Assembly: GCA_963807105.1 (NCBI GenBank)
Contig: CAWEAM010000010.1
Coordinates: 203,530-267,529 of the forward strand
DNA length: 64,000 nt
Origin: an uncultured Acidobacteriota bacterium
GTDB lineage: Bacteria > Acidobacteriota > Vicinamibacteria > Vicinamibacterales > UBA2999
Reading direction: 5' to 3'
A program made the position numbers and the translations under genes. Below, piece by piece: positions 4,480 through 23,955 of the stretch. Every line of letters starts with the position of its first letter. The first letter of the stretch is position 1. Under the pieces are notes generated by a model that saw nothing but the letters and a program-made list of their open reading frames with translations, was not told where the DNA came from and did not search any database.

Positions 4480-6141
4480 TTAGAGTCTCCCCGCGCGCGA
4501 TTCAGAGACGATGAAGTCGCAGGTGCGAACCGTCAGCGCCATGATGCTCAACGTGTGCGACTGATGGCCCGAGGACGGGAAGCACGCGCCATCGGTGACG
4601 AACAGATTCGGCACGTCCCACGACTGGTTGTAGCGGTTGAGCACCGACGTCCTCGAGTCGTCGCCCATCCGCGCGCCCCCCATCTCGTGAATCGCTCCAC
4701 CCGGATGAAAAGCGCCAAATGGGGTCACGACGTGCCGCCAGAGTGACGCGTAGATCGCCCGGCGCCTCAGGCTGGTCATGTCGCTGAGCGACGCGCGGAT
4801 GCGCAGTCCGGCGGCCGCCGCGATCTCGTGCATCGTCGTGGTCATATCGGCGACGAGCGTCCGATCGTTCGCCGAGTGCACGCAATCGATGTGCGCGACC
4901 GGAATTCCCCACGCGTCACGCCGGCTGGCGTCGATGGTGATGGTGTTGCTCGCGGAGGGCAGCATGTCGCCGAATCCGGCGAGGAAGAAGCCGCGACCGT
5001 GCCGGCCGATCGAGCCGAGCATGCTGAAGCTCCCCTGGTAGCTCGAACGCGGCGGTTCAGTGATGTTCTTGAAACCCGGCACGTAGACATAGGCGGACGC
5101 CAGGTCGTACGGATCGCGCTCGACGTCCTCGGCTGTGTGGCCCGCGCCGGCAAGCGACTGGGGCACGTCGCCGGACATCGCTGTCATGCAGTGATCCATC
5201 ACATAGCGGCCGAGCGTTCCGGAGGAGTTGCCGAGCCCGTGCGGATGATGGCCGCCGGCCGAATTCAGGAGGATACGGACCGATTCGAACGCCGACGCAC
5301 AGAGGACGATGATCCGGCCCTGGACGACTTCGGCTCGGCGCGTCACGCGATCGATGAACTCCACGCCTCGCGCCCGGCTGCCCGTGGCATCCACCTGCAC
5401 GCGCTTGACGACGGCGTCGCTGCGCAGCGTGAGATGGCCGGTCTGCAGTGCCGCGATCAGCGGCAACGGGATGCGTTGTGGATTGTGCGCGACCACCGGC
5501 GCCGCGACCAGTCGCCGCGCCGGCCAGCGGCCCTGGACGACGTCGCGGACGCGCTCCTCTGCCGCACTGAGCCGCCGCGGCGCAACGAACGCTCCATCCG
5601 GACGCTGCGGTAGTCCCTCTGGTGTGCCGTGCACCCCAAGAAACCGTTCGACGCGCGCGTACGACGGCTCCAGATCCTCATACGCGATCGGCCAGTCGAG
5701 CCCTTCACCGCCGTGCGCGCTCGGCTTGAGCTCGAAATCGGAAAATCGCGGCGCCACGCGTCCCCATGTGTGCAGCCGGCCTCCGACCTGACGGCCGCGG
5801 AACCAGTTGAACGGCCTTCCTGGCGCGCGGCTATACGGGTTTTCGCGATCGTTGACGTAGAGCTGTCGCGTCGCGCGCGTGCAGGCGAAGCAGCGCGCTT
5901 GCACGGGCTGCCCGGTGAGCGCGAGCCACGCGCGCTCGGGCATGCCGAAGTCGCGCGGACGTGGCGTCGGGAAATGATCGCTGGCGTTCACCTGCGGGCC
6001 GGCGTCGAGGAGGAGCACTTTCATGCCAGCCGTCGTCAGCTCGAGCGCCGCGAAGCAGCCCGCGGCCCCGGCGCCTACTACGATCGCGTCGAACACCGTG
6101 GAAGCGTCTGCCGCGTCTCCCGCGCCGATCACTGCCGTCAT
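4480..6141 (-). CDS. GMC-family FAD-dependent oxidoreductase
   Basis: C-terminal 553 aa of ORF 4480..7056, starting MTAVIGAG..FDAIVVGAGAAGCFAALELTTAGMKVLLLDAG (Rossmann GxGxxG). It ends ..GGARMGDD..VLNRYNQSWDVPNLFVTDGACFPSSG, the GMC C-terminal signature. The ATG at 6141-6139 overlaps the upstream stop at 6138-6140. Confidence 0.85.
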   Translation of the reverse strand: MTAVIGAGDAADASTVFDAIVVGAGAAGCFAALELTTAGMKVLLLDAGPQVNASDHFPTPRPRDFGMPERAWLALTGQPVQARCFACTRATRQLYVNDRENPYSRAPGRPFNWFRGRQVGGRLHTWGRVAPRFSDFELKPSAHGGEGLDWPIAYEDLEPSYARVERFLGVHGTPEGLPQRPDGAFVAPRRLSAAEERVRDVVQGRWPARRLVAAPVVAHNPQRIPLPLIAALQTGHLTLRSDAVVKRVQVDATGSRARGVEFIDRVTRRAEVVQGRIIVLCASAFESVRILLNSAGGHHPHGLGNSSGTLGRYVMDHCMTAMSGDVPQSLAGAGHTAEDVERDPYDLASAYVYVPGFKNITEPPRSSYQGSFSMLGSIGRHGRGFFLAGFGDMLPSASNTITIDASRRDAWGIPVAHIDCVHSANDRTLVADMTTTMHEIAAAAGLRIRASLSDMTSLRRRAIYASLWRHVVTPFGAFHPGGAIHEMGGARMGDDSRTSVLNRYNQSWDVPNLFVTDGACFPSSGHQSHTLSIMALTVRTCDFIVSESRAGRL

Positions 6142-7844
6142 GTCTGCTTCCGGCCGACGAAGCGATACAGGATCACGCCGTCGCCGACGAACGCACGCTC
6201 GAGCCCGGGCACGTCGTCGAGCGTGGCCATCCGATCGTTCCACTCCCACGGCGACCAGATCACCCACGTGACGCCGTTGGTGGCAAGCCATGCCGACCGC
6301 TCGTCGGGCGTCGCCGACGAGGTGAAGAACCAGTCGCGCGCGGCGCGCTTCTCCGGCTCCCGCAGAGTCATGTGCCAATGCCCGTGGAACATGCGCGTGT
6401 CGGCGAGCGTGGGCGCCCAGCCGGCCGTCCAGAATCCCGCGAGCGTGATGTCGCGATCGCTGGCGTGCTCGTGCAGATACTCGAAGAGCCGCTGAGTATC
6501 GGCGCTCAGGAAATAGTTGGGCGCGCGCGGCGTGTAGGCCGATAGATGCCGCTGCAGCATCGCGCCGGCACCGATCGTCGCGATGCCCACGTACCCGTAG
6601 CACAGCGCGCGCGCCAGTGTCCCGCGTGAAGTCTGCGAGCCGGGTCGCGGACTCGAAGGCGATGTCTCGGCGTGCCCGATTCGGCGCTCGCGCCGATATC
6701 GCACAGCAAGTCGCGCGAGGCGGTCCGCGCCGACGGCGGCGAGCAGCGAAAGCGGAACGTGGATGCCACCAGGCAGTCGCGCCTGTTTGCCGCCGAGCCG
6801 GAAGGGCGTCATCAGAAACAAGAAGACGAAGATCACCCAGCACAAAGGCAAGGCGTAGCGCGATCGCAGGGAGGCCTTTGTGAGAACGACGGCGGCCGGC
6901 ACGCCGAGAATGCCGAACGACGCCAGATAAAACGGCCAGCGCTGCACCTGCATGATGTCGTTGGCCATCGCCGCGTAGATCGGATCGATTCGGATGATCC
7001 AGATGAGGTACACCGCCGCCGGCAGTGCGCCAAGCGCGACGGCGGCGGCGTGCCACGCCGAGGCCCTCGGAAATTGTCGCTCCTCAGCCCACAGGAACAG
7101 CGCGTACGTTCCCGTGCCGAGAATCAACGACAGGAAATCCCACGGATGCGTCCACGACAGAAAGAACGACAGCGCCATGGTTGCTGCGACGAACGCGTGC
7201 GGCTTCGGCCGCAGTTGACCGCGCCCCAGCGCCGCGCGCGTCGCAAACAGCGCGGTCAGAAGCGCCAGCGCGAGGATGAGGTGAGGCAGATTGCCGAGCA
7301 CATAAAATGTGTTGCCTTCGGGAAGGTGCTCATCGCCATGCGCCGTTCCCGGCCGCAGGATATCGAGTACCCAGCCGCCCCCGGCGGAGAAGCAGACGAA
7401 CGCGAAGTAAAGGCGCTGGAGCGATCGTCGTCTGAGGAGCAGCGCTCCGAACCACCACGCCGCCGCCAGCAGACCCACGCCGAAGACGACGCGGCTTACC
7501 TGAAACGACGTGAGCGCGCTCATTCCGAAAGCTTTGCAGAGCGCCGCCTGGAAGTAGACTTCCGGCAGGAACAGGCGGGGCATGTGCGGCTCGGACGTAA
7601 ACGGGTTGCCGACGAGAAACGCGCCTTCCGCGACCTCACGCGTAAAGGCGAGGTACTGATTGGCATCCTGCGCGTTGAATGGCGGAACCGCAAAGAACCG
7701 TGTGTTCGCCGGCCCGAACATGTAGCCGTACAGATAGGGCAGGCTGCTGACGAGTAGTGTCGCCGCGCCCATGATCAGCAGCGCGCACGCGTGTCGCGCC
7801 CGCCGGTGATCGGCCGCAGCCGGCACGGTGCGCTGCGCGACCAT
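6138..7844 (-). CDS. large polytopic membrane protein with C-terminal soluble domain; possible GT-C-type enzyme
   Basis: 568 aa with more than 10 hydrophobic segments. The first loop is FNAQDANQYLAFTREV, and there is a soluble tail of about 130 aa. It is translationally coupled on both sides (TGATG at 7842-7846, ATGA at 6138-6141). Assignment of function is weak. Confidence 0.6.
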   Translation of the reverse strand: MVAQRTVPAAADHRRARHACALLIMGAATLLVSSLPYLYGYMFGPANTRFFAVPPFNAQDANQYLAFTREVAEGAFLVGNPFTSEPHMPRLFLPEVYFQAALCKAFGMSALTSFQVSRVVFGVGLLAAAWWFGALLLRRRSLQRLYFAFVCFSAGGGWVLDILRPGTAHGDEHLPEGNTFYVLGNLPHLILALALLTALFATRAALGRGQLRPKPHAFVAATMALSFFLSWTHPWDFLSLILGTGTYALFLWAEERQFPRASAWHAAAVALGALPAAVYLIWIIRIDPIYAAMANDIMQVQRWPFYLASFGILGVPAAVVLTKASLRSRYALPLCWVIFVFLFLMTPFRLGGKQARLPGGIHVPLSLLAAVGADRLARLAVRYRRERRIGHAETSPSSPRPGSQTSRGTLARALCYGYVGIATIGAGAMLQRHLSAYTPRAPNYFLSADTQRLFEYLHEHASDRDITLAGFWTAGWAPTLADTRMFHGHWHMTLREPEKRAARDWFFTSSATPDERSAWLATNGVTWVIWSPWEWNDRMATLDDVPGLERAFVGDGVILYRFVGRKQT

Positions 7845-8959
7845 CAGTTGCGCGACTCCTGGAACCGCGCAAACCAGGCGCTGAACTCGGCGGCGACGAT
7901 GTGGTTGCCGTGCGCGTTGAGATGAATGTCCTTGCGGAAGTACGGCGCCTGGCGCGCGCCGCCGGCCGCGAGCGCGCCGTACAAGTCCAGTACCGCGACG
8001 TTCTTCGACGACAACCGCTCTTTGATGCGAGCCGCAAGGTTTTCGCGCGCCTGCGCCGGCGTCGCGCCAAAGAGCTCCTCTTTACTCGGGATCAGCATGA
8101 CCACGAAGGCCGCGCCGCTCGCTTCGACGGTATCGCGAAGCTCGCTGACCGACGCCATGAAGGTCGCGAGCCTGGGATCGTCGGGAGCCGTGCCCTTCGT
8201 CGCGAACTCCAGCGCGTGGCGCTCGAAGAGAATCTCGGTGCCGTCGGCGAAACGACGGCGAGGCTCGGCGTAATCCTGTCCCTGGACGATCCGCAGCGCG
8301 ACCTGCTGCGCTCGATAGAGGAGCCATGATTTGTCGAGAAAGCGCTGCAGGATGCCTTTGTAGCGCGCGTCGCGCGCGAGGCTGAGCCGGAACCGGTTGT
8401 AGTCGGCCCCGCCGCCCTCGCCGAGCCAGGCGAGAAACTGCTCGTCGTTCTCGACGTCGCTGGCCAGAAACAAACAACCGACCACGAGCGCAGGGCGCCA
8501 GTCACCGCCGAAGCGCTGATAGATCCGACGTTGCCGTGCCGGTCCGGCGGCGGCGAGGCCCAGGTTGAGGACGGAGTGTTTGGACAGCGATCGGGCGACG
8601 AGGCCGGTGAAGATCCCATCGAGCCCCACGCCAGCACCGACCAGAAACGAGTCGCCGAGAAAGACGACCGACGGATTGTCGGGCCACGGATCGCGGTTGG
8701 GATAGCCCCGTGAATCCGTTTCGGCAAGAAACGAGTAGTCGTCCGTGCGAATCATCTCGCGCTGATTGGGCGGCATCGAAAAGCCCAGCTCGGCGTCGGG
8801 GACCACGACAAACGGATAGTGGATGAAGAAGTATTCGATCTGCCACTGCACCGGCATCAAGCGCGGGAACGCGCGGCCTGCGGCTTCGACCATCGCGACA
8901 AGCAGCCCGCCGAGGGCCACCGCGAGGCCGGTCAAGGCAAGATTTCGCTTCGTTCGCAC
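7844..8959 (-). CDS. membrane-anchored SGNH-like hydrolase/acyltransferase-fold protein (paralog 1)
   Basis: N-terminal TM helix, VVFLGDSFLVGAG (GDS block) and RKDIHLNAHGNHIVA (D-x-H block near the C-terminus). Clear paralog of 22861..23955. Confidence 0.75.
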   Translation of the reverse strand: MRTKRNLALTGLAVALGGLLVAMVEAAGRAFPRLMPVQWQIEYFFIHYPFVVVPDAELGFSMPPNQREMIRTDDYSFLAETDSRGYPNRDPWPDNPSVVFLGDSFLVGAGVGLDGIFTGLVARSLSKHSVLNLGLAAAGPARQRRIYQRFGGDWRPALVVGCLFLASDVENDEQFLAWLGEGGGADYNRFRLSLARDARYKGILQRFLDKSWLLYRAQQVALRIVQGQDYAEPRRRFADGTEILFERHALEFATKGTAPDDPRLATFMASVSELRDTVEASGAAFVVMLIPSKEELFGATPAQARENLAARIKERLSSKNVAVLDLYGALAAGGARQAPYFRKDIHLNAHGNHIVAAEFSAWFARFQESRN

Positions 8960-8991
8960 GCGGCGCTTCCTTCGCCTCGGACTCCATCACG

Positions 8992-10674
8992 TTACTCGCG
9001 GTTACCGCGCGGCGCGAACTGGAAGAGACCGACGTTTTCGAACACGCGGATCTCGACCTCGACGTATTCCGCGCGCAGCCACTCGAGGACCGCCTCGTGG
9101 GTGCGTCTCTCAGGTCCCTGGTCGTCGAGATACCAGACACTCCTCGGACGATGCGCCGTCGACAAGGCTCGCAATTGCGTCGCAACATCCGGACTGGACC
9201 GGCGGTGCTCCGGGACGTCGATGCGAGCGAAATCCGGGTTCGATCGCAGGTAATAGGCGAAATCCATCGGGCTCAACCCCGGATCGAGCACCAACACCAG
9301 GTCGCGTTCGCTCGTCCGCTCGTCGATATGGGCCGCCACCTCTCGAACCCCCAATTGGTACATGAGCGTGCCAGACCAGCCGCACAGATAGGCGGCACTC
9401 CCGCCGACGAGAAAGGCGAGAAGGCCGACGGCAATTGTCCGGCGCACAGGAGTCGACGCGATACCGATGACGCCCATGGCAACCGCCAGATAAATCGGTC
9501 CGCTCGCGGTAATGAAATAGCGGTGTGAGTGAACCATGTGGGTGTCGAGCAGGAGATCCATCATGATCGGACCAGCCAGGGCGCACGCAGTCCACATCGC
9601 GCACACCAGCCACGGATTGGGAGCGCATCGCGGCTCGACGCTGTTCGTACGGATATGGTGGACGAAGCGCCAGGCGCACACGGCAAAGATCAACAGCGGA
9701 ATCAGGTACGCGGCTCTCGTGGCCAGGCTGTCGATGCGGCAGCCGGGAGCGAGCGAAAGCCGCGCGCATAGGCCGTCGATGCGGCCAGGTGCCAGCAGCA
9801 GCAAGATGGCTCGCACGAGCGAGATCGCGCCGTCGGCGAGGGTCGACACCCCGGAGTACCAGTAGAACCAGCTGTTCGAGCCCACCTCGCGACTCCACCG
9901 CACCTGGGCAAGCAGCGTGGGTGCCCACAGAAGGCAGATGACACCAGCCGCCAGGCACGCGCCGGCGAATCGCACCAGGGCGCTGCGGTTCTGTCGCTGG
10001 TAAAACGCGATTAGCGCGACGTGAAAGAGGAGATTCCAGACGAAAATGTACTGCGTGTACACGCCCAGAACGACCGCCACCGCATAGATCGTTGGCCACT
10101 TCCATCCTCGCTCGCCGCGAGCAAGATGAACGACCGCCAGCGCCGCGAGCAGCGCGAAGAAGCCAAGCAGGGCATACGGACGATTGAAGAGCGCAAAGGC
10201 AATCTGAAACGGAGCCAGGGCGAAGACCCAGGCGGCGTAGACGCCAACCAGATTAGAGCACAGGTAGCGTCCAATCGCATACAGCAGGGGGATGGAGCCG
10301 ACGCTTGCGAGCAGCGAAAGCGAACGGACCGCTGCCTCCGAAGTCTCGAACAGGTGCAGCCAGAGATTCAGGAGAACGTAATAGAGTGGCGCCTGATCGT
10401 TGATCCGCAACAACTCGATGAGCTGCTGTGAAAAGTAGCCCGGCTGCAGCGATACGAGGTCACGATAATAGTCAGCGCTGTGGAAGGGCGCCGTCTCCTC
10501 GCCTTTGAACGGATACCACGAATGTCCGGTCGAGAGTGCCAGACTGATGAATTCATCTCCCCATAGACTGTAGGCGCGAATGCCTGAAAACCGCAGCACC
10601 GTGCCGCCGATCACCGCGCCGGCGAGCAGCGCCCACCTCGATTTGCTGGTCATTGTTGGGAGAGCTGGAGACAT
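8992..10674 (-). CDS. GT-C fold glycosyltransferase, GT39/ArnT-like
   Basis: ORF 8992..10821 (TTG). I prefer the ATG at 10674 (MSPALPTMTSKSRWALLAG) or at 10653. It has LRFSGIRAYSLWGDEFISLAL (D-E pair after TM1), about 12 TM segments and a soluble C-terminal domain. Confidence 0.75.
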   Translation of the reverse strand: MSPALPTMTSKSRWALLAGAVIGGTVLRFSGIRAYSLWGDEFISLALSTGHSWYPFKGEETAPFHSADYYRDLVSLQPGYFSQQLIELLRINDQAPLYYVLLNLWLHLFETSEAAVRSLSLLASVGSIPLLYAIGRYLCSNLVGVYAAWVFALAPFQIAFALFNRPYALLGFFALLAALAVVHLARGERGWKWPTIYAVAVVLGVYTQYIFVWNLLFHVALIAFYQRQNRSALVRFAGACLAAGVICLLWAPTLLAQVRWSREVGSNSWFYWYSGVSTLADGAISLVRAILLLLAPGRIDGLCARLSLAPGCRIDSLATRAAYLIPLLIFAVCAWRFVHHIRTNSVEPRCAPNPWLVCAMWTACALAGPIMMDLLLDTHMVHSHRYFITASGPIYLAVAMGVIGIASTPVRRTIAVGLLAFLVGGSAAYLCGWSGTLMYQLGVREVAAHIDERTSERDLVLVLDPGLSPMDFAYYLRSNPDFARIDVPEHRRSSPDVATQLRALSTAHRPRSVWYLDDQGPERRTHEAVLEWLRAEYVEVEIRVFENVGLFQFAPRGNRE

Positions 10675-10984: not shown

Positions 10985-12352
10985 CTACTGCCCGCCACCG
11001 ATCAACCGCCGGTTCAGCAGGTGTTGCGCCATCGTGTCGGCTACAAACTCGTGTCCGGCGGCATTCCAGTGAGGATCTTCGCGGAAAATCAGTGGGTACT
11101 TGTTCGTCATCTGGAAGTCGGGCAGCAGGTCGACAACCGGATACGGCCGCTCGGCCTCCTGAAAGTAGCGAAAGTACTCGAATTGATGCGGCTCGTTGAG
11201 CGCGTACTCCGGCCGCTCCCAGTTCTCAGGGGATTCCTCCGGATTCCAGTGATGAAAGCGCGGCGTCACGACCAGCAGAAATCCCGCACCGTGTTCGTTC
11301 GCCACTCTGGCGATCTCGTCGACGTTGCTCATGGTCTGGTCGAAGAAATGCCGCGTCGCGCTCAGCGGATGCCGGTAGACAAAGAAGCGATTGCGCTCGA
11401 CCTTGTCGGCAACGGTGATCTCGAAATCGTAATAGTCGTATGCGTTCGAAGCGTCGTTCGATTGGCCTTCTTTCGACAAGCTCCTGGCCACCTTGACCGG
11501 ATACTGCAATGCCGAGGCCAGCCGCCGATGATATGGGCGTATTAGCTCCGGCAGCGCGCCTCGATACCTGGGCGGCCGAGCGTCCTCGAATGGGAAGTTA
11601 GTGCCGTCGACTGATTGTGCGAACTCGGCCATGTAGCGATGGTCGTCGCCGATATCCGTGACGTCAAGAAACACGACGACGAGCGTTGGTTTGTAGGCGA
11701 GCAGCCTCCGCTCCAGCAACAGCTTCTGAAGGAACGGCGAGTAGCTGATGATTCCCGCGTTGAGCACCGCGATGCTGTTGCGACCGGTCATCTCGCGCAG
11801 GCGACCTTCGAGGCGCGCGGGGAACGCCTCCTCGCCAGCGACGCCAAAGCCAAACGTGAAGGAGTCGCCAAGCGCAATGATCCGCTCCTGGAATTGCGCG
11901 AACTCTTCCGCGGAGTACGGTGTGCGCAGTCCGTCTTCATTCGTTTCCAGAAACACATCTTTGCCCTCGAAGCGGCCCATGAAGATACGCGCGCCGCCGG
12001 GATAGATATGGTGAAGCTCCCGCGACCGGAATCCGCCAGCCTCGATGCTGACGGCGGTCGCGCGCGGAACGAGCGCCCGCGCGGCGATTTCGAAGGCCGC
12101 GAGAGCGACTGCAGAGGCAACAACGACGAGGGCCGTCTGCTTGCGCCAGCGCAGCGCGCGTGGCACCAACCAGACCAGTGCGAACAACACCAGCCAGTAC
12201 GCGCACAGGGCGCCAACGGCCGATCTCCGGTAAATGTCTCCGTCCGGAGCCAGGCGATCGAGAGCACCGATGCCGATCGCGGCCGAGGTCACCACCACAG
12301 CCGCGAGTGACGCGAGGATCAAACGTGAGTCGGAGGCCAGTCTTCGTTGCAT
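10985..12352 (-). CDS. membrane-anchored SGNH-like protein (paralog 2)
   Basis: ORF 10985..12448 (TTG). ATG at 12352 is preferred. It has an N-terminal TM region, IIALGDSFTFGFGV and FREDPHWNAAGHEFVA. Confidence 0.7.
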   Translation of the reverse strand: MQRRLASDSRLILASLAAVVVTSAAIGIGALDRLAPDGDIYRRSAVGALCAYWLVLFALVWLVPRALRWRKQTALVVVASAVALAAFEIAARALVPRATAVSIEAGGFRSRELHHIYPGGARIFMGRFEGKDVFLETNEDGLRTPYSAEEFAQFQERIIALGDSFTFGFGVAGEEAFPARLEGRLREMTGRNSIAVLNAGIISYSPFLQKLLLERRLLAYKPTLVVVFLDVTDIGDDHRYMAEFAQSVDGTNFPFEDARPPRYRGALPELIRPYHRRLASALQYPVKVARSLSKEGQSNDASNAYDYYDFEITVADKVERNRFFVYRHPLSATRHFFDQTMSNVDEIARVANEHGAGFLLVVTPRFHHWNPEESPENWERPEYALNEPHQFEYFRYFQEAERPYPVVDLLPDFQMTNKYPLIFREDPHWNAAGHEFVADTMAQHLLNRRLIGGGQ

Positions 12353-13664: not shown

Positions 13665-15122
13665 ATGTCGAACAAAGCCATCGCGGGTAGAATTCGTTAC
13701 TTCGACGTCACGGTAGTTGCGCTCGCCGTTTTCGTCGCCAGCGGTTTACTGCTTGTCCGCAGCTCGGGAAGCACGCAGAGCAGCATCGTAATGCTTTTCG
13801 TCCTCGCCGCCGCCTGCGCCGTGTTTGCGGCACTCCGGCGGCGTGCCTATGTGCAGGACACGCCGTGGCTGATTTTGTCGTTCGCGGCTTTCTTGGGCCT
13901 TGCGATGATCAGGGTCTTCTGGAACGCGCCGCTCATGTGGTTTATGGTGATCATGAGTGCCGGCGTGGCGTTGTTGCTCGTGGGGGTGATCGCGCCTGCC
14001 AAACCCATTCGCGAGCCTGTGAAGCGGCTCGAGGTGTTCAAGCTGATAAGCGTCGTCGTTGGTGTCGTGGTAATGGTCGCTGGGACTGAGGGGCTGCTTC
14101 GGCTGGTGCCCGGCGTCTTCAGCCAGGAGACGCAGCAGGCGCTCACGGGCACGCCGAGCAATTCGGGCATTGGCAATCCGACCATCGGACATCTCCACCG
14201 GTCCGATCGGACATTCGAAGTCGCCGGCAAGGACTTCGACGCGCAACACTCAGTCGACACCTACGGCTTTCGCAATCGATGGCCGTGGCCCGAGCAGGCC
14301 GAGATTGTCGCGGTCGGCGATTCGCTGACGTTTGGTCTCGGCGTGCAAAACGATCAGGCATGGCCCGCGATCGTCCAGCGCGACCTGGGCAAGCCATTGA
14401 TCAGTCTGGGACTCGTCGGCGCCGGTCCACAGCAGTATCTGCGCCTCTACGAAACGTTCGGCGCCAAGCTGCGGCCGAAGCTGGTGCTCGTTGGCATCTA
14501 TGCGCAGAACGACTTCTGGGACGCAGGCATGTTCGATCAGTGGCAGCGCACTGGAGTCGGCGACAACTACATGGTCTGGCGCAACTTCGGCCGGCCACTT
14601 CGTTACACGTTCAGCCTCCGCCATCCGATCGAGACAGCGGAGGGTGTGTTCCGGGCGCATGTGTACCCGGTGTTGCGCTCCAGCTATCTCTACAATCTCG
14701 TGCGCGCCATGCGCGGCGGCGACGCTCAAGCCGTGGGGCCCGCCAAGGCGATGGACTTTCCGGACGGCGGCCGCATGCAATTCTTCGTCGACGACTTTCT
14801 CATCAAGACGGTGGGCGCGAGGCGCGATGCGCCAGAGTTCAGGCTGGTGCTCGACGCGTTACAGCGACTTCACGGGCTGGCCACGAAACAGGGAGCGCGC
14901 GTGCTGATGGTCCTGCTGCCGAGCAAAGAAGAGGTGTACCTGCCGCTGACTGGCGAGTCGCTGCCCGATCCCGCGCTCGCCCTGCGTCAGGCATTTGACG
15001 AGGCGGGTATCTCGTATCTCGATCTCGTTCCCACGTTTCGCGAGCACGCCAAGAAGGGCGAACGGCTGTTCTTCGAGGTTGACACGCATCCCAATGAACG
15101 CGGCTATGCGCTGATCGGCTGA
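13665..15122 (+). CDS. membrane-anchored SGNH-like protein (paralog 3); C-terminus probably frame-broken
   Basis: ORF 13536..15122. ATG at 13665 (MSNKAIAGRIRYFDVTVVALAVF) is preferred. It has IVAVGDSLTFGLGV and FEVDTHPNERGYALIG followed by a stop. The +1 frame from 15121 continues ELVAADLKASPGRYGLED with a stop at 15175-15177, matching the paralog tails. Confidence 0.7.
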   Translation: MSNKAIAGRIRYFDVTVVALAVFVASGLLLVRSSGSTQSSIVMLFVLAAACAVFAALRRRAYVQDTPWLILSFAAFLGLAMIRVFWNAPLMWFMVIMSAGVALLLVGVIAPAKPIREPVKRLEVFKLISVVVGVVVMVAGTEGLLRLVPGVFSQETQQALTGTPSNSGIGNPTIGHLHRSDRTFEVAGKDFDAQHSVDTYGFRNRWPWPEQAEIVAVGDSLTFGLGVQNDQAWPAIVQRDLGKPLISLGLVGAGPQQYLRLYETFGAKLRPKLVLVGIYAQNDFWDAGMFDQWQRTGVGDNYMVWRNFGRPLRYTFSLRHPIETAEGVFRAHVYPVLRSSYLYNLVRAMRGGDAQAVGPAKAMDFPDGGRMQFFVDDFLIKTVGARRDAPEFRLVLDALQRLHGLATKQGARVLMVLLPSKEEVYLPLTGESLPDPALALRQAFDEAGISYLDLVPTFREHAKKGERLFFEVDTHPNERGYALIG

Positions 15123-15189
15123 GCTCGTCGCCGCGGATCTCAAAGCCAGCCCCGGCCGCTACGGTCTCGAGGACTGAGGAACCCATTTC

Positions 15190-16314: not shown

Positions 16315-16371
16315 CGGGCGCGTCCGGTGATCGCAAAGCCGGGATCATCCGCCGCTCGACGAGGTGACGAT

Positions 16372-16455: not shown

Positions 16456-16464
16456 GGGGAGACG

Positions 16465-18826: not shown

Positions 18827-18880
18827 CAGCAACCAGCACCTGGGCGCGCCCGCTTGCCAGAGGGTGACACCATTGAACGG

Positions 18881-19621
18881 CTATTGCCGCAAAACTTGAC
18901 CGACGTCGTCGCTAGACGCCTTGGTCCAGACCGCAATCACCGTCTTCCCAACACGGTAGCCGAGCAATGGGTCCAACACGCGGGACAGGCGGACCAGCGT
19001 TGAATCCCAGAATCGAATCTGAGACAAGGTGGGATAGTCCGCGCGCAGCAGGGTACGGTTCGCAAGCGATGCGAGCATACCCGCGCTATCGAGATAAAAG
19101 GTTCGAATCAAGCGGAGGCGGTCTGGAGCAGCCTGTATCAGGGAGTGTCGATCATAGCGGCGGAAGTGGCCAATTGCACGGTCGAAGGGACTGAACAGCC
19201 GATTGTGAGCCGGCGCGAGCACGATGAGGTGTCCACCCTGCCGAAGCCGCTGTACACAGCGCGCGAGCTCTGCGCGGTCATTCTCGATGTGCTCGAGAAC
19301 GTCGATGAACACGATCGTGTCGAACGTCTCGTCTGGCGCGAGGTCCGCGATGGTCCCGCAGATCACTCGTGCGGGCACTGGCAACGGCTCAGCGGACAGC
19401 AGCTCTCGGAGCGTGTCGGCGAGGCGGGGGTCCGGTTCCAAGCATGTCCAAGCGGCCTGATGTTCGTCACACAGGAATCGCGAGGTTCCGCCGATTCCAG
19501 CGCCCACCTCGAGGACATCGCCGGCAAGATATGGGCGGAGATGCCCCGCGTAGTAACGTTTCCAATTCACCGCATGCTGGAACAGGTCCAGCTCGCTTCC
19601 AGCATAGGAAAAATCGCTCAT
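18881..19621 (-). CDS. class I SAM-dependent methyltransferase
   Basis: VLEVGAGIGGTSRFL, FDTIVFIDVLEHIEND and GGHLIVLAP. The ATG overlaps the upstream stop (ATGA at 19618-19621). Confidence 0.85.
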   Translation of the reverse strand: MSDFSYAGSELDLFQHAVNWKRYYAGHLRPYLAGDVLEVGAGIGGTSRFLCDEHQAAWTCLEPDPRLADTLRELLSAEPLPVPARVICGTIADLAPDETFDTIVFIDVLEHIENDRAELARCVQRLRQGGHLIVLAPAHNRLFSPFDRAIGHFRRYDRHSLIQAAPDRLRLIRTFYLDSAGMLASLANRTLLRADYPTLSQIRFWDSTLVRLSRVLDPLLGYRVGKTVIAVWTKASSDDVGQVLRQ

Positions 19622-20679
19622 ACATTCGGCACTTCGCAGGCAGCAGACCTGCCAATGTTCTCCGCGGAGCCCTGCGGAAACAATCGCGAGGTGCCACCGA
19701 CGAAGTAGCGATAGTCCCGAATCGCAATGAAAAGCGGTTGCGAGCGGCCGTGGAGCACCAGGAAGACGAAAAAGAACGCAAAGGCGATTGCCTGGACAAG
19801 CAGCACCAGTAACAAGCCAGCGGCAGTCGTCGCCCAGCCGGGGATGGCCAGTGGCGTGGTCGTGCGCACGACGAACACCGTGGCGAGGAGAATCGTCACG
19901 GCGATGATCGCGATTGTCGTCGCCGCGAGAAGGCGAACGCCGATCACCTCTGAATGAACCGACAACGCGCTCAGCCCATGGCCAATGAGTGCCATCAGGT
20001 TCATCCGCCCATGTCCGCTCAGGCGTTCTGCCCGCACCGTCGGGATCGTATCGCGCGGAAGTCGGGTCTTGAATACCGCCGCTGCATAGTGGTTCCAGAG
20101 CTCGGGAATGACGACCAGCCGTCGCAAGTGCCCGGCCGGCACGATGCTGAAGTTCCCGACTCGTACCGGGATGCCCGTCAAGAGAAGATGCGCGAGCCGG
20201 TAAAGGCCATAGAACGCGCGGAACGACAGGCTCTCGGACCGCCGGGTCCGCTCGGCAAAAATGATTCGGCAGTTGTTTGCGGCCTGCAGGCGGGCGACGA
20301 GTCGCGGGACGTCCTCGGGAGCATCTTCGCCGTCTCCGTCCATGATGACCACCGCCCCAGGCCCGACGGAGTCCTCGACGTACGCAAGCGCGAGGGCGAT
20401 CGCCCGCTGGTGTCCCATGTTGAGCCGCAGCGTGAGGACCTCTATCCGCCGGATTGCCACGTAACCGCTGGCGCCAATGATGGCGTCCGGCTGGGTCGTC
20501 GACCCATCGTCGACGAGCAGCACATCGGGACGGAGCGATGCCTCGGCAAGCACCTGATCGAGGCGCATGAGCAAAAGGGACACTGCGTCCCAGTCGTTGT
20601 AGAGAGGAATGAGCACAAGCAGTTCGGGACCGCCAGTAGGGCGGTTGGCGCTCTGCCGAGTGTCATTCAGGGCGCTCAT
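19618..20679 (-). CDS. GT2 polyprenyl-phosphate glycosyltransferase (GtrB/ArnC/DPM1-like) with two C-terminal TM helices
   Basis: LVLIPLYNDWDAV, VLLVDDGST and MDGDGEDAPEDV (DxD), followed by two hydrophobic helices at the C-terminus. The ATG overlaps the stop of the GT-C gene upstream. Confidence 0.8.
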   Translation of the reverse strand: MSALNDTRQSANRPTGGPELLVLIPLYNDWDAVSLLLMRLDQVLAEASLRPDVLLVDDGSTTQPDAIIGASGYVAIRRIEVLTLRLNMGHQRAIALALAYVEDSVGPGAVVIMDGDGEDAPEDVPRLVARLQAANNCRIIFAERTRRSESLSFRAFYGLYRLAHLLLTGIPVRVGNFSIVPAGHLRRLVVIPELWNHYAAAVFKTRLPRDTIPTVRAERLSGHGRMNLMALIGHGLSALSVHSEVIGVRLLAATTIAIIAVTILLATVFVVRTTTPLAIPGWATTAAGLLLVLLVQAIAFAFFFVFLVLHGRSQPLFIAIRDYRYFVGGTSRLFPQGSAENIGRSAACEVPNV

Positions 20680-22331
20680 TTTGGAGGCGGCCGGTCCGCA
20701 GGTGTCAGCCGCGATGCGGCCTGGCGGTCGACTTTAACGACGACGGCGAGTGTCACACCGTCGCGGGCGACGCGATGAATGACCTCACCGGGATAGAAAC
20801 GATCGTGGTCCCAGCGTGTGAGCCCGATGTAGAAGTCTGGCGGGTTCGCGTACGGGTTCGTCCGAAACGGCAAATCGTCCACGCTGCCGATGTAGTCGAA
20901 TCGATCTGACGGCACGTAATGTTGCGTTTGCGGCGCTGTGGCGCTACCGGCGACTCGGGGACGCGGTGTCGCGGGCGGCACGTTGTCGACGAGCCATAGG
21001 GTTGCTTCGCGGAGCGCGTTGCCCCAGTAGTCGGTATCCCAACGGCCCGCGGCTCCGACAAGTCCACCAGCGACCGATCGATTGAAGAAAGTGCTCTGGT
21101 AAGGGTGAATCCGGATCATGTCGGCGAGCGTAAGCGCCGCGCTCGCGGCAAACAGAACAAGTCCGGCCGTCCGGACCAACCACAGGCCGGTGCCGCGGAC
21201 GCACCACGCCACACCTGCGCCAACTGGGATTGCGAGGAACACCGTGGCGAAAAGGAAATGCCGCAATCCATCGTAGAGCGCCGGCCGCGTCAGAGTTGCC
21301 AAACCTAGAGGGATAGCCACCGCGGCGATGACCGTAATCCACCCGATGATCGCGTTCGGTGACCAGGGCCGGCTTCGGAGCGACGCGACAATGGCCATCG
21401 CGATCCCGACGAAATAGAACTCCGGCGTAATCCGGAACAGCCACGCCCAGACATATGTCGCCGGGACATCGAGGTAATTGATCACTTCACCGTTGTACAA
21501 GACTGGAAGCGAGCCGAACCCGGCGGCTCGCCATTGTTCGCGAACCACTCTGGCGAGCCCCAGCACCGCCCTCACCTGCAAATAGGGCCAGAATGGCAGC
21601 ATCACGATTGCGGCAATGACGGCGACCGTGCACGCCGATGGCACAAGTCGCTTGACCGTTGACCAGACGGATCCGCGACGTTCGCCAGTCCACCACCAGG
21701 CGGCGAAGGCCGTAGCAATGACCGTCAGGATGAGGAGTGCGTTGATGCGGACCGCGAGCGCCAGCCCCCACCACACGCCGAGACTCAAGATGTCGACTCG
21801 CCTCGGGTGCGGAAGCGACTGGACAAACCTCACGGCTGCTGCCACGGTCCACACCGTGCAGGCCGCCAGGGGTATGTCCTTGCCGTTATTGAAGCCATGA
21901 CCGAAAAATCTCGGCGTCAGAATCAGCGCGAGTGCGGCCCAGAAACCCGCCGCCGGACCGTTGAGTCCGCGAGCCAAGGAAGCGATCCCTGCGACTGTCA
22001 GCACTGCGAAGCCGAACGCGTAAACGTGCCTGACCAGCCAAAGGTCGGCGCCCGTGGCGCGCTCGATTGCGACCGGCGGCAAGTCGAACAGCACGCCGTA
22101 ATAACGCAGGTTGCTGAACTGCATGAAAGATCGATCGGTAAAAGCGCTTGTGTACCAGGCCAGCACATTTTCACCGTTCTTCGAGTGCACGGATTCGTCA
22201 AAGGTGATTCCATAGTGATTCACCAGCATGACGCCGCTACACACGTAGACGAGAAGGAGACCCGTGGTCAGGCGCGTCCATTGGCTTTCGGTCAGTCGCA
22301 TCGAGTGCTTCGATCCTTCGCCCATCACCAC
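20676..22331 (-). CDS. GT-C fold glycosyltransferase, GT39/ArnT-like
   Basis: 551 aa, polytopic. ITFDESVHSKNG lies after TM1 (D-E pair), and there is a soluble C-terminal domain. The start is uncertain (GTG 22331, ATG 22325 or ATG 22301). Confidence 0.75.
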   Translation of the reverse strand: MVMGEGSKHSMRLTESQWTRLTTGLLLVYVCSGVMLVNHYGITFDESVHSKNGENVLAWYTSAFTDRSFMQFSNLRYYGVLFDLPPVAIERATGADLWLVRHVYAFGFAVLTVAGIASLARGLNGPAAGFWAALALILTPRFFGHGFNNGKDIPLAACTVWTVAAAVRFVQSLPHPRRVDILSLGVWWGLALAVRINALLILTVIATAFAAWWWTGERRGSVWSTVKRLVPSACTVAVIAAIVMLPFWPYLQVRAVLGLARVVREQWRAAGFGSLPVLYNGEVINYLDVPATYVWAWLFRITPEFYFVGIAMAIVASLRSRPWSPNAIIGWITVIAAVAIPLGLATLTRPALYDGLRHFLFATVFLAIPVGAGVAWCVRGTGLWLVRTAGLVLFAASAALTLADMIRIHPYQSTFFNRSVAGGLVGAAGRWDTDYWGNALREATLWLVDNVPPATPRPRVAGSATAPQTQHYVPSDRFDYIGSVDDLPFRTNPYANPPDFYIGLTRWDHDRFYPGEVIHRVARDGVTLAVVVKVDRQAASRLTPADRPPPK

Positions 22332-22631
22332 ATGGTGCGTCGTGTCACATCCATCCTCAGCCTGGACAAACGAACTCGGCGCCCGCAGTGATCATCAGAT
22401 AGAACTTGAAGGCCGCAAGGCGGGATTTCCGGTACTCGTTCCGGGAAAAAGGTATACCAGCCAGACGCGGCATCGGAATGCGCGATTACCGTGCTTCGTC
22501 AGGGAGATTGCCCGCATTGAGGTGTGATGATACCGCCGAAAAGAATCGAGTCGCTGCCGGCGACGTGGAGTCTCGTGCTCGCCATCGCGCACGGCGCGCT
22601 GGCCTCGCTGTACGGCACGACTCAGTCGGAT

Positions 22632-22648
22632 CGATTTCGACGAAATCG
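22632..22648. promoter_or_regulatory. perfect 8+1+8 palindrome in a divergent intergenic region
   Basis: cgatttcg a cgaaatcg, inside the 529-nt gap between the divergent genes ending at 22331 and starting at 22861. Confidence 0.3.
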
Positions 22649-22860
22649 CAACCGTGGCAGTCGCCCCGCTCTGGGAGCGCTGAGCGATGCGGGGACGCCG
22701 ATCCTCCGCCTTTCTCCCGGCTCGAGGCTCGTGGCCGCATTGCACGCTCGCGCGGTCGATTGGGCATTCGCCGCGTCGCGGTTCGAGGGCTCGGGCCAAC
22801 CTATGACCTTCCTGTTGAGTTCCGCAGCTACCACAGGCGTTATAAGATAAGCACAACCAT

Positions 22861-23955
22861 ATGCCTCGACGATTCGCTGCGTTCCTTGCGTTCGCGGCAG
22901 CGGCGGGACTCGCGTGCGCGGTCGCCGTCGAACTGACCCTTCGGACCTTTCCCGGCCTCATGTCCGTGCAGTGGCAGTTGCGGCACCCAACACCTCAGCC
23001 CGGCCCACCCTTCGTCGTGATTGCGGACAAAGAGCTGGGTTACGTCAATCCGGTTACTCCGGCGGGCGATCGCTACGGCTTCCCGAACCGTGAGCCGTGG
23101 CCCGAAGACCCGTCGATTGTGTTCCTCGGTGATTCGTTCCTGGGCGGTGCGTTCCCGCAGTTGATCGCCCGTGCTTTGCCTGGGGATCCGGTGCTCAACC
23201 TTGGGATGGCATCGGCGGGTCTGGAACGGCAATTTCTGATCTACCGGCGATTTGGCAGCCAGCTTCATCCGCGGCTCGTCGTGGCCGCGCTGGTTCTCTC
23301 TTTTGACTTCGAGAACGACGCGGCATTTCGCGAATGGCTGCCCAAGCGCGACCAGATCGAATGGGTGAGATTCCGCAATACTTTCGCAGCCGAGCAGCGT
23401 GGCGAACAGCCCTACATCGACGTTCGGACCGCACTTCGGACGCGGCAGTTTCGCCGCCTGCTCGATAAGTCTCGCCTGTACACTCGCGCTCACGATCTCG
23501 TCGGCAGCCTCGGCAGTCCCTATCCCGACACTTATTCCTTCCCCGACGGCACGAAGATGTTGCTCGACGAGTTCACGGTGCGATTCGCGGCTGCGATCGC
23601 GACGAAGAGCGATCCGCGCATCGACTTGCTCGTCGCCTCGATGGAGCGGCTCCGCGACCTCGTGGCCAAGCAGGGCGCCGAGTTGCTGGTGATGCTTATT
23701 CCGAGCAAGGAGGAGCTCTTCGGCGTCCCTCCTGTAGCTGCCGAAAGCAACGTCATCGCCCGAACACGAGAGCGGCTACAGGAGGCGAACTATGCGGTTC
23801 TCGACCTCTACCGGACGCTTCGCGAGGGCGGGAGCATGCACCCACCCCATTCCCATTTTCCGGGCGACATCCATCTCAACGAGCTTGGCAACCGTCTCGT
23901 AGCGGACGCGTTTCTCGACTGGTTCAAGACGCATTACGCGTCGAAGAAGCAATAA
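22861..23955 (+). CDS. membrane-anchored SGNH-like protein (paralog 4)
   Basis: N-terminal TM helix, IVFLGDSFLGGAF and FPGDIHLNELGNRLVADAF. It aligns along its length with 7844..8959. Confidence 0.75.
   Translation: MPRRFAAFLAFAAAAGLACAVAVELTLRTFPGLMSVQWQLRHPTPQPGPPFVVIADKELGYVNPVTPAGDRYGFPNREPWPEDPSIVFLGDSFLGGAFPQLIARALPGDPVLNLGMASAGLERQFLIYRRFGSQLHPRLVVAALVLSFDFENDAAFREWLPKRDQIEWVRFRNTFAAEQRGEQPYIDVRTALRTRQFRRLLDKSRLYTRAHDLVGSLGSPYPDTYSFPDGTKMLLDEFTVRFAAAIATKSDPRIDLLVASMERLRDLVAKQGAELLVMLIPSKEELFGVPPVAAESNVIARTRERLQEANYAVLDLYRTLREGGSMHPPHSHFPGDIHLNELGNRLVADAFLDWFKTHYASKKQ

What the first reader, a model, noticed from the sequence alone, without database searches (positions are those of the whole stretch)
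6138..23955. Four paralogous membrane-anchored SGNH-like proteins, three of them adjacent to a GT-C gene
The genes 7844-8959, 10985-12352, 13665-15122 and 22861-23955 share one architecture. Each has one N-terminal TM helix, a GDS(F/L) block about 100 residues in, and a D-x-H-(L/W/P)-N block near the C-terminus (DIHLN, DPHWN, DTHPN, DIHLN). The Asp sits two residues before the His, not three as in the canonical SGNH DxxH block. That spacing resembles the AlgJ/AlgX-type DxHW motif of polysaccharide O-acetyltransferases. Three of the four lie next to a GT-C-type gene. Pairs are 6138-7844/7844-8959 (coupled by a 1-nt overlap), 8992-10674/10985-12352, and 20676-22331/22861-23955 (divergent). A repeated GT-C plus SGNH-like module is not a pairing I know from characterised systems, where MBOAT or AT3 proteins are the usual partners of such domains.
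Basis: partly seen in the sequence, partly recalled or inferred. Interest (0 to 1): 0.65.

Follow-up and report, generated by a model that had tools for sequence, protein, structure and literature searches.

The report
Four membrane-anchored SGNH esterase-like paralogs
A large sugar-polymer gene cluster carries four diverged copies of an uncharacterised, membrane-tethered esterase/acyltransferase-like enzyme. The copies mix classical SGNH features with AlgJ-type motifs, and their pairing with GT-C glycosyltransferases is real but occasional rather than a fixed two-part system.

Summary
The observation largely holds. The four ORFs (7844-8959, 10985-12352, 13665-15122, 22861-23955) are homologous SGNH-fold proteins with an invariant GDS serine and a C-terminal D-x-H-x-N block. 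Three lie next to genuine GT-C genes; the one without a Pfam match, 6138-7844, has an STT3/ArnT/AftA-like predicted fold.

Corrections: only two of the four have a single TM helix (S2 about 3, S3 about 5). S3 carries a frameshift at its 3' end.

The family combines the two AlgJ signature motifs (hydrophobic-PxK and DxH) with a classical GDSL block I in canonical S-G-N-H order. It is therefore not a member of the circularly permuted AlgX/AlgJ family. No MBOAT or AT3 partner is encoded in the 64-kb window.

In 119 other loci, only 12 of 153 family genes sit next to a PMT_2-type GT-C. Wzx-like flippase, GH1, AsnB, a PDE-GFO-PDE trio and a second SGNH paralog are commoner neighbours, and S2-type homologs stand alone. 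When a GT-C is present, however, it is directly adjacent in 12 of 16 cases (4.9 expected).

Best reading: extracytoplasmic enzymes that tailor ester groups on a flipped surface glycan, loosely and recurrently linked to GT-Cs. This is a new variant of a known kind, of moderate interest.

The parts
7844..8959 (-). S1: single-TM SGNH-fold protein (GDS 102-104, VMLIPSKEE 287-295, DIHLN 344-348)
   Evidence: Pfam ALGX 39.2 bits and Lipase_GDSL_2 38.0 bits, both above cut-off. AF2 pLDDT 92.7. Foldseek matches TesA, PatB and CgnD. Orthologs at 53-64% identity lie in syntenic loci.
10985..12352 (-). S2: SGNH-fold paralog with about 3 TM segments; the most divergent copy (GDS 162, DPHWN 426; PxK motif replaced by TPRF)
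   Evidence: It belongs to a large subfamily (more than 300 hits) whose members are stand-alone elsewhere.
13665..15177 (+). S3: SGNH-fold paralog with about 5 N-terminal TM segments (GDS 218, DTHPN 473). The ORF stops at 15122 because of an apparent 1-nt insertion near 15117; the +1 frame continues to 15177.
   Evidence: Orthologs at 42-52% identity are followed by a short PMT_2 gene in L004, L006, L011, L012 and L078; L031 has the same pairing from the, 83 coordinates.
22861..23955 (+). S4: single-TM SGNH-fold paralog of S1 (GDS 90, DIHLN 336). It heads the S4-PDE-GFO-PDE-GT2 run.
   Evidence: The Pfam ALGX and GDSL_2 hits are below the gathering scores, but it is 42% identical to S1.
6138..7844 (-). 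GTC1: GT-C-fold membrane protein (DUF6541/PTPS_related-like), translationally coupled to S1 (TGATG) and to the GMC gene (ATGA)
8992..10674 (-). GTC2: PMT_2-type GT-C, upstream of S1 (32-nt gap) and downstream of S2 (310-nt gap)
   Evidence: Pfam PMT_2 32.6 bits against a cut-off of 26.1. It is 49% identical to the PMT_2 of the syntenic locus L003.
20676..22331 (-). GTC3: PMT_2-type GT-C, divergent from S4
   Evidence: Pfam PMT_2 30.3 bits. Its stop overlaps the start of the GT2 gene (ATGA).
19618..20679 (-). ArnC/PgfS/PpgS-like GT2 with 2 C-terminal TM segments: the likely polyprenyl-phosphate sugar synthase feeding GTC3
   Evidence: scores are below the equivalog cut-offs, so this is a family-level assignment only
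548..2089 (-). Wzx-like MOP flippase (Polysacc_synt), the last gene of the minus-strand run that contains S2-GTC2-S1-GTC1
   Evidence: Flippases of this family are the commonest immediate upstream neighbour of S1-type genes elsewhere.
4480..6141 (-). GMC oxidoreductase, coupled to GTC1 by an ATGA overlap
   Evidence: The same order is seen in L003.
23963..28657 (+). PDE (AlkP-like, PF01663) - GFO/IDH/MocA - PDE trio downstream of S4, with a small 4-TM ORF at 25425-25958
   Evidence: The trio recurs with the SGNH family in many loci.
29607..31649 (-). AsnB-type amidotransferase, a recurrent companion of the family

Best explanation
The four genes are diverged paralogs of a widespread, uncharacterised subfamily of SGNH-fold serine enzymes. 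The subfamily comprises at least about 1,250 clusters at 50% identity.

Each protein is tethered to the cytoplasmic membrane by an odd number of N-terminal TM helices (1, 3, 5, 1). The catalytic domain is therefore most likely extracytoplasmic; this is inferred from the positive-inside rule.

Catalysis should run through an acyl-enzyme on the GDS serine (S104 in S1). H346 would act as the base and D344 as the acid, with the acid two residues before the His, as in AlgJ/AlgX.

The domain is a hybrid:
- Blocks I-II are classical GDSL.
- The strand-PxK(EE) motif and the DxH block are the two AlgJ signature motifs.
- The order is the canonical, un-permuted S-G-N-H.

The genes sit in a large surface-glycan cluster containing a Wzx flippase, GT2/GT4/GT-C transferases, methyltransferases, AsnB, oxidoreductases and a PDE-GFO-PDE trio. 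I infer that they add, move or, more likely, remove ester-linked substituents on a lipid-linked or nascent glycan. They would act at the outer face of the inner membrane, after flipping. I favour removal because no transmembrane acyl-donor protein (MBOAT or AT3) is encoded nearby.

GT-C enzymes act at that same face. Adjacency to GT-Cs (and elsewhere to Wzx) would reflect operon-level coupling of steps that share site and substrate. It recurs with different GT-C subfamilies but is not an obligate two-component system.

Shown: homology, fold, motif conservation, gene order and neighbourhood statistics. Inferred: topology, substrate and direction of the reaction.
For: - Homology and motifs.
- Fold: AF2 pLDDT 92.7, with Foldseek hits to TesA, PatB, acetylxylan esterase, CgnD and DltD.
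- Catalytic alignment: the GDS block aligns on the catalytic Ser block of classical SGNH proteins, and DxH aligns on AlgJ D190/H192. The motif definitions are from PMC9487903.
- Family size: 1,254 representatives at E <= 1e-30.
- Glycan-cluster context.
- Syntenic locus L003 (FkbM-PMT_2-SGNH-GTC1-GMC-AKR-Wzx).
- Neighbourhood statistics.
- No MBOAT/AT3 in the window or in the annotated loci L001-L005.
Against: - No biochemical data exist for any member.
- The AlgJ-type motifs are so far known only from O-acetyltransferases, which argues for transfer rather than hydrolysis. The Block III Asn is replaced (Ser/Phe/Thr) in S1-, S4- and S2-type proteins, as in some transferases.
- An MBOAT/AT3 could be encoded elsewhere in the genome.
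- S2-type homologs occur outside any glycan context, so S2 may do something different.
- GT-C detection in other loci relied on jackhmmer from 8 seeds and may undercount.
Confidence: 0.55

Rival explanations
1. One reading: SGNH plus GT-C form a dedicated two-component module. The SGNH enzyme would process (for example de-acylate or acylate) the polyprenyl-phosphate-linked donor or the acceptor of its neighbouring GT-C.
For: - In the window, three of four paralogs are adjacent to a GT-C, one with a 1-nt overlap.
- Conserved pairs exist elsewhere: L003, L002, and overlapping SGNH-PMT_2 pairs in L004/L005, L006, L011, L012 and L078, plus L031.
- When a PMT_2 gene is present, it is directly adjacent in 12 of 16 cases against 4.9 expected.
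- The partners come from several unrelated GT-C subfamilies.
- Both protein types would act at the periplasmic face.
Against: - Only 12 of 153 family genes have an adjacent PMT_2-type GT-C.
- Wzx, GH1 and a second SGNH are each more frequent neighbours.
- GTC1-family homologs L044-L046 lack an SGNH neighbour.
- S2-type homologs stand alone.
- S3, whose orthologs pair with PMT_2 elsewhere, is next to a GT4 gene here.
- No SGNH-GT-C fusion appeared among the 150 best family members.
- The adjacent cases are phylogenetically non-independent.
Confidence: 0.15
2. They are AlgJ/AlgX- or PatB-like O-acetyltransferases in a classical relay. An MBOAT or AT3/TmAT protein encoded elsewhere would pass acetyl groups to one paralog, which hands them to another or to the glycan.
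For: - Both AlgJ signature motifs are present, with DxH spacing.
- Two or more paralogs co-occur per locus (15 of 34 loci of at least 15 kb), reminiscent of AlgJ plus AlgX.
- The Block III Asn is replaced in most members.
Against: - No MBOAT or AT3 is encoded in 64 kb here or in five annotated homologous loci. In known systems the partner is adjacent or fused (PMC9487903, PMC12148441).
- The block order is not permuted.
- Block I is GDS(F/L), not GTSYS or KDS.
- The permuted profile does not extend the AlgJ match.
- The N-terminal TM region of S3-type proteins is poorly conserved, so it is unlikely to be an acyl conduit.
Confidence: 0.15
3. Some or all copies, especially S2, are general membrane-associated lipases, phospholipases or esterases unrelated to the glycan pathway and merely embedded in the cluster.
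For: - S2-type homologs lie in unrelated contexts in 3 of 3 large contigs.
- Sources name the homologs only 'GDSL-type esterase/lipase' or 'lysophospholipase L1-like'.
- The best fold matches include thioesterase/lysophospholipase TesA.
Against: - S1-, S3- and S4-type genes are consistently embedded in glycan loci and translationally coupled to Wzx, GT-C or GH1 genes.
- The source names are automatic, not tested.
Confidence: 0.1

Closest known systems
AlgJ / AlgX (Pfam ALGX, PF16822) and B. cereus PatB1 (DHHW family): periplasmic polysaccharide O-acetyltransferases
   Same: - The hydrophobic-PxK motif and the (R/K)xDxH block, with the acid two residues before the His.
- The C-terminal ~100 residues align to AlgJ at E 2.7e-8 to 4.8e-6.
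- Membrane-anchored and, by inference, extracytoplasmic.
- Located in a polysaccharide locus, with more than one paralog per locus.
   Different: - Canonical S-G-N-H order instead of the circularly permuted H-S-G-N.
- Block I is GDS(F/L), not GTSYS or KDS.
- The Pfam match covers only model positions about 21-135 of 268.
- No AlgI/PatA-type MBOAT is nearby and there is no CBM.
Classical SGNH/GDSL hydrolases (Lipase_GDSL_2; E. coli TesA, acetylxylan esterases)
   Same: - Block I GDS and Block II N-x-G, in canonical block order.
- The overall predicted fold (Foldseek TM about 0.7 normalised to the target).
   Different: - DxH instead of DxxH.
- The AlgJ-type PxK(EE) motif.
- The Block III Asn is mostly replaced by Ser/Phe/Thr (retained in S3-type).
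- A ~90-residue helical insertion (residues about 165-255) and an N-terminal beta-hairpin region.
- An N-terminal membrane anchor.
DltD (lipoteichoic acid D-alanylation) and N. gonorrhoeae PatB: membrane-tethered or periplasmic SGNH acyltransferases that work with an MBOAT
   Same: - A single N-terminal anchor plus an extracytoplasmic SGNH-like domain in canonical order.
- Weak fold matches (6pfx E 3.5e-4; 7tjb E 3.9e-5).
   Different: - No Pfam DltD or PatB match.
- No MBOAT or carrier-protein genes nearby.
- Different Block V spacing from PatB (DxxH).
Three-component extracytoplasmic glycosylation systems (GtrA/GtrB/GtrC; ArnC/ArnEF/ArnT; CsbB/GtcA/YfhO)
   Same: - GTC3 is coupled to an ArnC/PpgS-like GT2.
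- GT-C enzymes act at the outer face of the membrane, where the SGNH domains are predicted to sit.
   Different: - None of these systems is known to include an SGNH protein.
- No GtrA-like flippase was identified here.

Membership tests
SGNH hydrolase superfamily | Block I G-D-S-(L) carrying the nucleophilic Ser | tested here: met
   GDS is present in all four. G102 and S104 are invariant and D103 is present in 27 of 28 homologs. The block aligns to the catalytic Ser block of 9otv and TesA.
SGNH hydrolase superfamily | Block II Gly, Block III Asn (GxND) and Block V His | tested here: inconclusive
   Block II: N132 in 27 of 28 and G134 in 23 of 28. Block V: His in 28 of 28. The Block III Asp (D168) is invariant, but the Asn position is Ser 20, Asn 5, Phe 2, Thr 1; only S3-type proteins keep Asn.
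SGNH hydrolase superfamily | Three-layer alpha/beta/alpha fold with the Ser-His-Asp triad in contact | tested here: inconclusive
   The fold criterion is met (AF2 pLDDT 92.7; Foldseek probability 1.00 to many SGNH structures).
SGNH hydrolase superfamily | Pfam Lipase_GDSL_2 score above the gathering cut-off (32.9 bits) | tested here: met
   S1 38.0, S2 39.2 and S3 45.8 bits. S4 scores 23.6 bits, below the cut-off, but is 42% identical to S1.
AlgX/AlgJ family (PF16822) | AlgJ signature motifs: hydrophobic-PxK and (R/K)xDxH(W), with Block V as DxH | tested here: met
   VMLIPSK, VLLPSK and VMLIPSK in S1, S3 and S4. S2 has VVTPRF, so its PxK motif is not met. DxH is present in all four. Motif definitions are from PMC9487903.
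AlgX/AlgJ family (PF16822) | Circularly permuted block order H-S-G-N | tested here: not met
   GDS lies 240-265 residues before DxH in all four. The Pfam ALGX match covers only model positions about 21-135 of 268. A permuted profile does not extend the AlgJ alignment into the Ser half.
AlgX/AlgJ family (PF16822) | Block I GTSYS and Block III Tyr | tested here: not met
   Block I is GDS(F/L). The Block III position is Ser/Asn/Phe/Thr.
AlgX/AlgJ family (PF16822) | Adjacent MBOAT (AlgI/PatA-type) acetyl donor | tested here: not met
   Every polytopic ORF of the window is assigned to a flippase, GT-C, ABC transporter or SGNH anchor. None was found in L001-L005. The rest of the genome was not available.
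DltD family / AT3-SGNH fusions (OafA, OatA) | Pfam DltD or SGNH (PF19040) match above cut-off; an AT3 domain or a DltB partner | tested here: not met
   There is no DltD hit. PF19040 scores only 16.1 bits for S1 against a cut-off of 27. No AT3 or MBOAT is present.
GT-C glycosyltransferases (the neighbours) | Polytopic GT-C fold or a Pfam GT-C family match | tested here: met
   GTC2 and GTC3 pass PMT_2. The GTC1 model matches STT3, ArnT, AftA, PglB and DPY19, and homologs hit DUF6541/PTPS_related.
GT-C glycosyltransferases (the neighbours) | Use of a polyprenyl-phosphate-linked sugar donor | not testable with these tools
   This is inferred only, from the ArnC/PpgS-like GT2 coupled to GTC3.

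The most novel reading that the evidence does not exclude
This family could be the catalytic part of an MBOAT/AT3-independent system for tailoring ester groups on periplasmic glycans. It would work directly on polyprenyl-linked intermediates handed over by Wzx or consumed by GT-C enzymes. One possible role is removing a cytoplasmically installed acyl 'protecting' group, or moving it onto the polymer. The family could also represent the un-permuted evolutionary precursor of the AlgJ/AlgX/PatB1 O-acetyltransferases.
Probability: 0.15. Interest if true: 0.7.

Novelty: new variant of a known kind. Interest (0 to 1): 0.4.

Why it matters
Extracytoplasmic acylation of bacterial surface polymers is currently explained by MBOAT-SGNH or AT3-SGNH pairs. 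Here a large family of at least about 1,250 sequence clusters, spread over several phyla, carries the AlgJ signature motifs in an un-permuted SGNH scaffold. Its genes are linked to Wzx flippases and sometimes GT-Cs, not to MBOAT/AT3 proteins.

If these enzymes are active on glycans, there are two possibilities. Either an unrecognised acyl-donor route exists, or periplasmic de-esterification is a common maturation step in the surface glycans of soil bacteria.

The family also offers a plausible intermediate for how the permuted AlgX/AlgJ fold arose. The conserved AsnB-Wzx-SGNH / GH1-PDE-GFO-PDE gene set points to an uncharacterised glycoconjugate pathway.

Tried and rejected
1. Circular-permutation test. 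I re-ordered 15 family sequences as C-terminal half plus N-terminal half and searched PDB sequences. The AlgJ match did not extend beyond the PxK-DxH half, so 'a simple un-permuted AlgJ' is rejected in favour of a hybrid.
2. Rosetta-stone fusions. I inspected the long members among the 150 best representatives and found no GT-C fusion. P0114 has a soluble C-terminal extension. The P0131 'SGNH-GH1' protein looks like a frameshift-merged gene call.
3. S3 N-terminal TM domain as an acyl conduit. The alignment of 12 homologs shows almost no conservation there, so this is rejected.
4. Linkage seen from the GT-C side. Three GTC1 homologs on large contigs have no SGNH neighbour.
5. S2 contexts. Three large contigs show no glycan genes.
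6. Promoter/terminator scan of 4100-24050. It found fewer promoter-like and only slightly more terminator-like sites than in shuffled sequence, which is uninformative.
7. Literature searches for SGNH plus GT-C pairings found nothing relevant. The top fold hit, CgnD, is a slow RiPP leader-peptide hydrolase and gives no functional lead.
8. The first attempt to scan genomes with the broad alignment failed for lack of a conserved stretch. It was repeated with the S1/S4 clade.
Full report
**Observation**

They are homologous. BLASTP gives S1 (7844-8959) against S4 (22861-23955) 42% identity, E 1e-78. S3 (13665-15122) against S1/S4 gives E 1e-26 to 1e-30. S2 (10985-12352) against S1/S3 gives E about 5e-8.

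The GDS and D-x-H-x-N motifs are at the stated places. Two details are wrong:
- Hydropathy predicts one TM segment for S1 and S4, but about three for S2 and about five for S3.
- GDS lies about 100 residues in only for S1 and S4; it is at residue 162 in S2 and 218 in S3.

The GT-C neighbours are real:
- 8992-10674 and 20676-22331 pass the Pfam PMT_2 cut-off.
- 6138-7844 has no Pfam hit. Its family (47 homologs) partly matches DUF6541/PTPS_related.
- Its AF2 model (pLDDT 92) matches STT3/OST, DPY19, AftA, ArnT and PglB at Foldseek E 2e-10 to 7e-6.

Gene junctions:
- The S1 stop and GTC1 start share one base (TGATG).
- GTC1/GMC and GTC3/GT2 overlap by ATGA.

**What the proteins are**

All four hit both Lipase_GDSL_2, through the N-terminal GDS block, and ALGX (PF16822). 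The ALGX match involves only their C-terminal ~100 residues against model positions about 21-135 of 268.

A profile of the four matches classical SGNH proteins over the GDS block. It matches AlgJ (4o8v), AlgX and B. cereus PatB1 over the C-terminal half, including the AlgJ 'RTDTHW' block.

The review PMC9487903 describes AlgJ/AlgX as follows:
- They have two signature motifs, hydrophobic-PxK and (R/K)TDTHW.
- Block V is DxH rather than DxxH.
- The block order is circularly permuted (H-S-G-N).
- Block I is GTSYS, and Block III carries Tyr.

The present family has both signature motifs: VMLIPSKEE (P291 and E294 invariant, K293 in 27 of 28) and F-x-x-D-x-H-L-N (H346 in 28 of 28, D344 in 27 of 28, position -3 variable). 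It keeps the canonical order, however, with a GDS(F/L) Block I. A profile of artificially permuted sequences still matches AlgJ only over the PxK-DxH half, while the Ser half matches classical GDSL enzymes.

The S1 model is confident (pLDDT 92.7). It matches TesA, acetylxylan esterase, N. gonorrhoeae PatB, CgnD and, weakly, DltD.

The family is therefore a hybrid: an un-permuted SGNH scaffold with AlgJ-type acid/base and PxK motifs. The Block III Asn is mostly Ser in S1-type proteins and retained in S3-type. I could not read model coordinates, so the triad geometry rests on homology and conservation, not on measured distances.

**Family size and names**

A profile search of 1.84 billion representatives gives 1,254 proteins at E <= 1e-30. 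Sources call the members 'hypothetical', 'lysophospholipase L1-like esterase', 'SGNH/GDSL hydrolase family protein' or 'AlgX domain'. None is characterised.

The nearest genome relatives of S1 are only 44% identical. They come from Vicinamibacterales, Candidatus Entotheonella, other Acidobacteriota, Gemmatimonadota and Alphaproteobacteria.

**Context in the window**

The genes lie in a surface-glycan cluster of about 36 kb:
- Wzx-like flippase 548-2089
- aldo-keto reductase
- methyltransferases
- GMC oxidoreductase 4480-6141
- GTC1, S1, GTC2, S2
- FkbM methyltransferase
- S3
- GT4, GT2, GT4
- methyltransferase
- an ArnC/PpgS-like GT2 coupled to GTC3
- S4
- a PDE-GFO-PDE trio
- GT2
- AsnB

Two further GT-C-type genes lie at 34336-36075 and 40141-41367. 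No MBOAT or AT3 gene is present: every polytopic ORF of the 64-kb window is otherwise assigned.

**Is GT-C plus SGNH a module?**

I collected 119 non-redundant loci from other genomes and metagenomes. Neighbours were classified with jackhmmer from window seeds.

Immediate neighbours (within 400 bp) of the 153 SGNH-family genes:

| Neighbour | Genes adjacent |
|---|---|
| another SGNH paralog | 30 |
| GH1 | 29 |
| Wzx-like flippase | 26 |
| PMT_2-type GT-C | 12 |
| GTC1-type GT-C | 1 |

Content of the 34 loci of at least 15 kb:

| Gene class | Loci containing it |
|---|---|
| Wzx-like flippase | 22 |
| PDE | 19 |
| AsnB | 18 |
| GH1 | 17 |
| second SGNH | 15 |
| PMT_2 | 8 |

Patterns by subfamily:
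- S1-type genes usually follow a flippase directly (L001, L008-L012, L014).
- Only close relatives of the window show PMT_2-SGNH-GTC1.
- S3-type genes are followed by a short PMT_2 gene in L004/L005, L006, L011, L012 and L078, and in L031 by coordinates. The window has no ortholog of that PMT_2; here S3 is next to a GT4.
- GTC1 homologs at about 50% identity have no SGNH neighbour.
- S2-type homologs (Planctomycetota, Myxococcota and others) are stand-alone genes in 3 of 3 large contigs.

Within the window, shuffling gene order gives P = 0.18 or 0.04 for the observed adjacency.

On the other side, when a PMT_2-type GT-C occurs in a family locus it is directly adjacent to the SGNH gene in 12 of 16 cases. 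Random placement predicts 4.9 (P about 1e-4). The GT-Cs involved belong to several unrelated subfamilies.

Caveats:
- Five or six of the twelve adjacent cases are one orthologous pair.
- GT-C detection may miss divergent members.
- Gene calling was crude.

Conclusion: there is a genuine, recurrent but minority linkage, not an obligate pairing.

**Mechanism**

Shown:
- an SGNH fold
- an invariant Ser and His, and a near-invariant Asp at position -2
- membrane anchors with odd TM numbers
- embedding in operons with a flippase, GT-Cs and GTs

Inferred:
- The catalytic domains face the periplasm. The N-termini carry two or three basic residues before the first TM segment.
- Serine-esterase chemistry acts on ester substituents of a flipped, lipid-linked or nascent glycan.

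No transmembrane acyl donor is encoded nearby, and the periplasm lacks acyl-CoA. I therefore rate de-esterification or transesterification somewhat above de novo O-acylation (roughly 0.35 against 0.25). The AlgJ-type motifs and the replaced Block III Asn argue the other way. GT-C adjacency fits enzymes that share the same membrane face and substrate.

**Comparison and novelty**

The family works most like the AlgJ/AlgX/PatB1/DltD class of extracytoplasmic SGNH-type acyl-handling enzymes. It fails the membership tests for AlgX/AlgJ: permutation, Block I and the MBOAT partner. It also departs from classical SGNH proteins through DxH, PxK, the helical insertion and the membrane anchor.

I class it as a new variant of a known kind. 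Literature searches found no described SGNH plus GT-C system.

**Also noticed**

- S3 carries an apparent 1-nt insertion near 15117. The +1 frame restores the conserved C-terminal helix up to 15177.
- A conserved AsnB-Wzx-SGNH / GH1-PDE-GFO-PDE core of unknown product recurs across phyla.

Noticed in passing
window 15110-15177: S3 ends prematurely (..GYALIG*) at 15122. The +1 frame continues AELVAADLKASPGRYGLED* to 15177 and matches the conserved C-terminal helix of homologs (..ALIAExV...RYGL..). This looks like a 1-nt insertion near 15117, either a sequencing error or a real truncation of about 19 residues after the catalytic His.
   Followed up: partly
window 22861-31649; loci L049, L068, L090, L112-L115: A conserved gene set accompanies this SGNH family in several phyla: AsnB, a Wzx-like flippase, SGNH, GH1 (no signal peptide) and a PDE(AlkP-like PF01663)-GFO/IDH/MocA-PDE trio. 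The window has S4-PDE-(4-TM ORF)-GFO-PDE-GT2 and AsnB. The product of this pathway is unknown.
   Followed up: partly
window 18881-22331 (- strand): GTC3, an ArnC/PgfS/PpgS-like GT2 with two C-terminal TM segments, and a class-I methyltransferase are chained by ATGA overlaps. This is the layout of a polyprenyl-phosphate-sugar synthase feeding a GT-C. No GtrA-like flippase was identified.
   Followed up: partly
window 34336-36075 (+) and 40141-41367 (-): Two further GT-C-type genes lie outside the finding (PMT_2, E 4e-12; PIG-M-like Mannosyl_trans, E 7e-8). The window therefore has five GT-C-type genes in 64 kb, which raises the chance level of SGNH/GT-C adjacency.
   Followed up: no
window 25425-25958 (+): A small ORF with about 4 hydrophobic segments lies between PDE and GFO, and its 5' part overlaps the end of the PDE gene. 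Its only hit is a weak CopD match (E 5e-5, below cut-off). It could be a small flippase-like membrane protein or have a later start.
   Followed up: no
proteins P0131 and P0114 (one search hits): P0131 looks like an SGNH-GH1 fusion. However, it has an Arg/Gly/Ser-rich linker and lacks the GH1 N-terminus, so it is probably two adjacent genes merged by a frameshift. P0114 (886 aa) has a long soluble C-terminal extension with no Pfam match.
   Followed up: partly
protein P0247: An S2-type homolog (43% identity) is annotated in a Promethearchaeota (Asgard archaeon) MAG, on a 4-kb contig. This could be binning contamination or lateral transfer.
   Followed up: no
window 36884-38194 (+) and 41788-63226: A PaaK phenylacetate-CoA ligase passes the NCBIfam equivalog cut-off (701 against 646 bits). 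Beyond it lie two ABC transporter fusions, an AlkZ-like glycosylase, amidohydrolases, gamma-glutamyltranspeptidase, a CarboxypepD_reg-TonB-type outer-membrane barrel, a polysaccharide deacetylase and a beta-lactamase-fold protein. The glycan cluster seems to end near 36 kb, apart from the PIG-M-like gene at 40 kb.
   Followed up: no
loci L044 and L046: GTC1-family (DUF6541-like) GT-C homologs at about 50% identity are followed, directly or one gene away, by a Hexapep-CBM9 protein rather than an SGNH protein. This points to a different acyl-related partner in those lineages.
   Followed up: no
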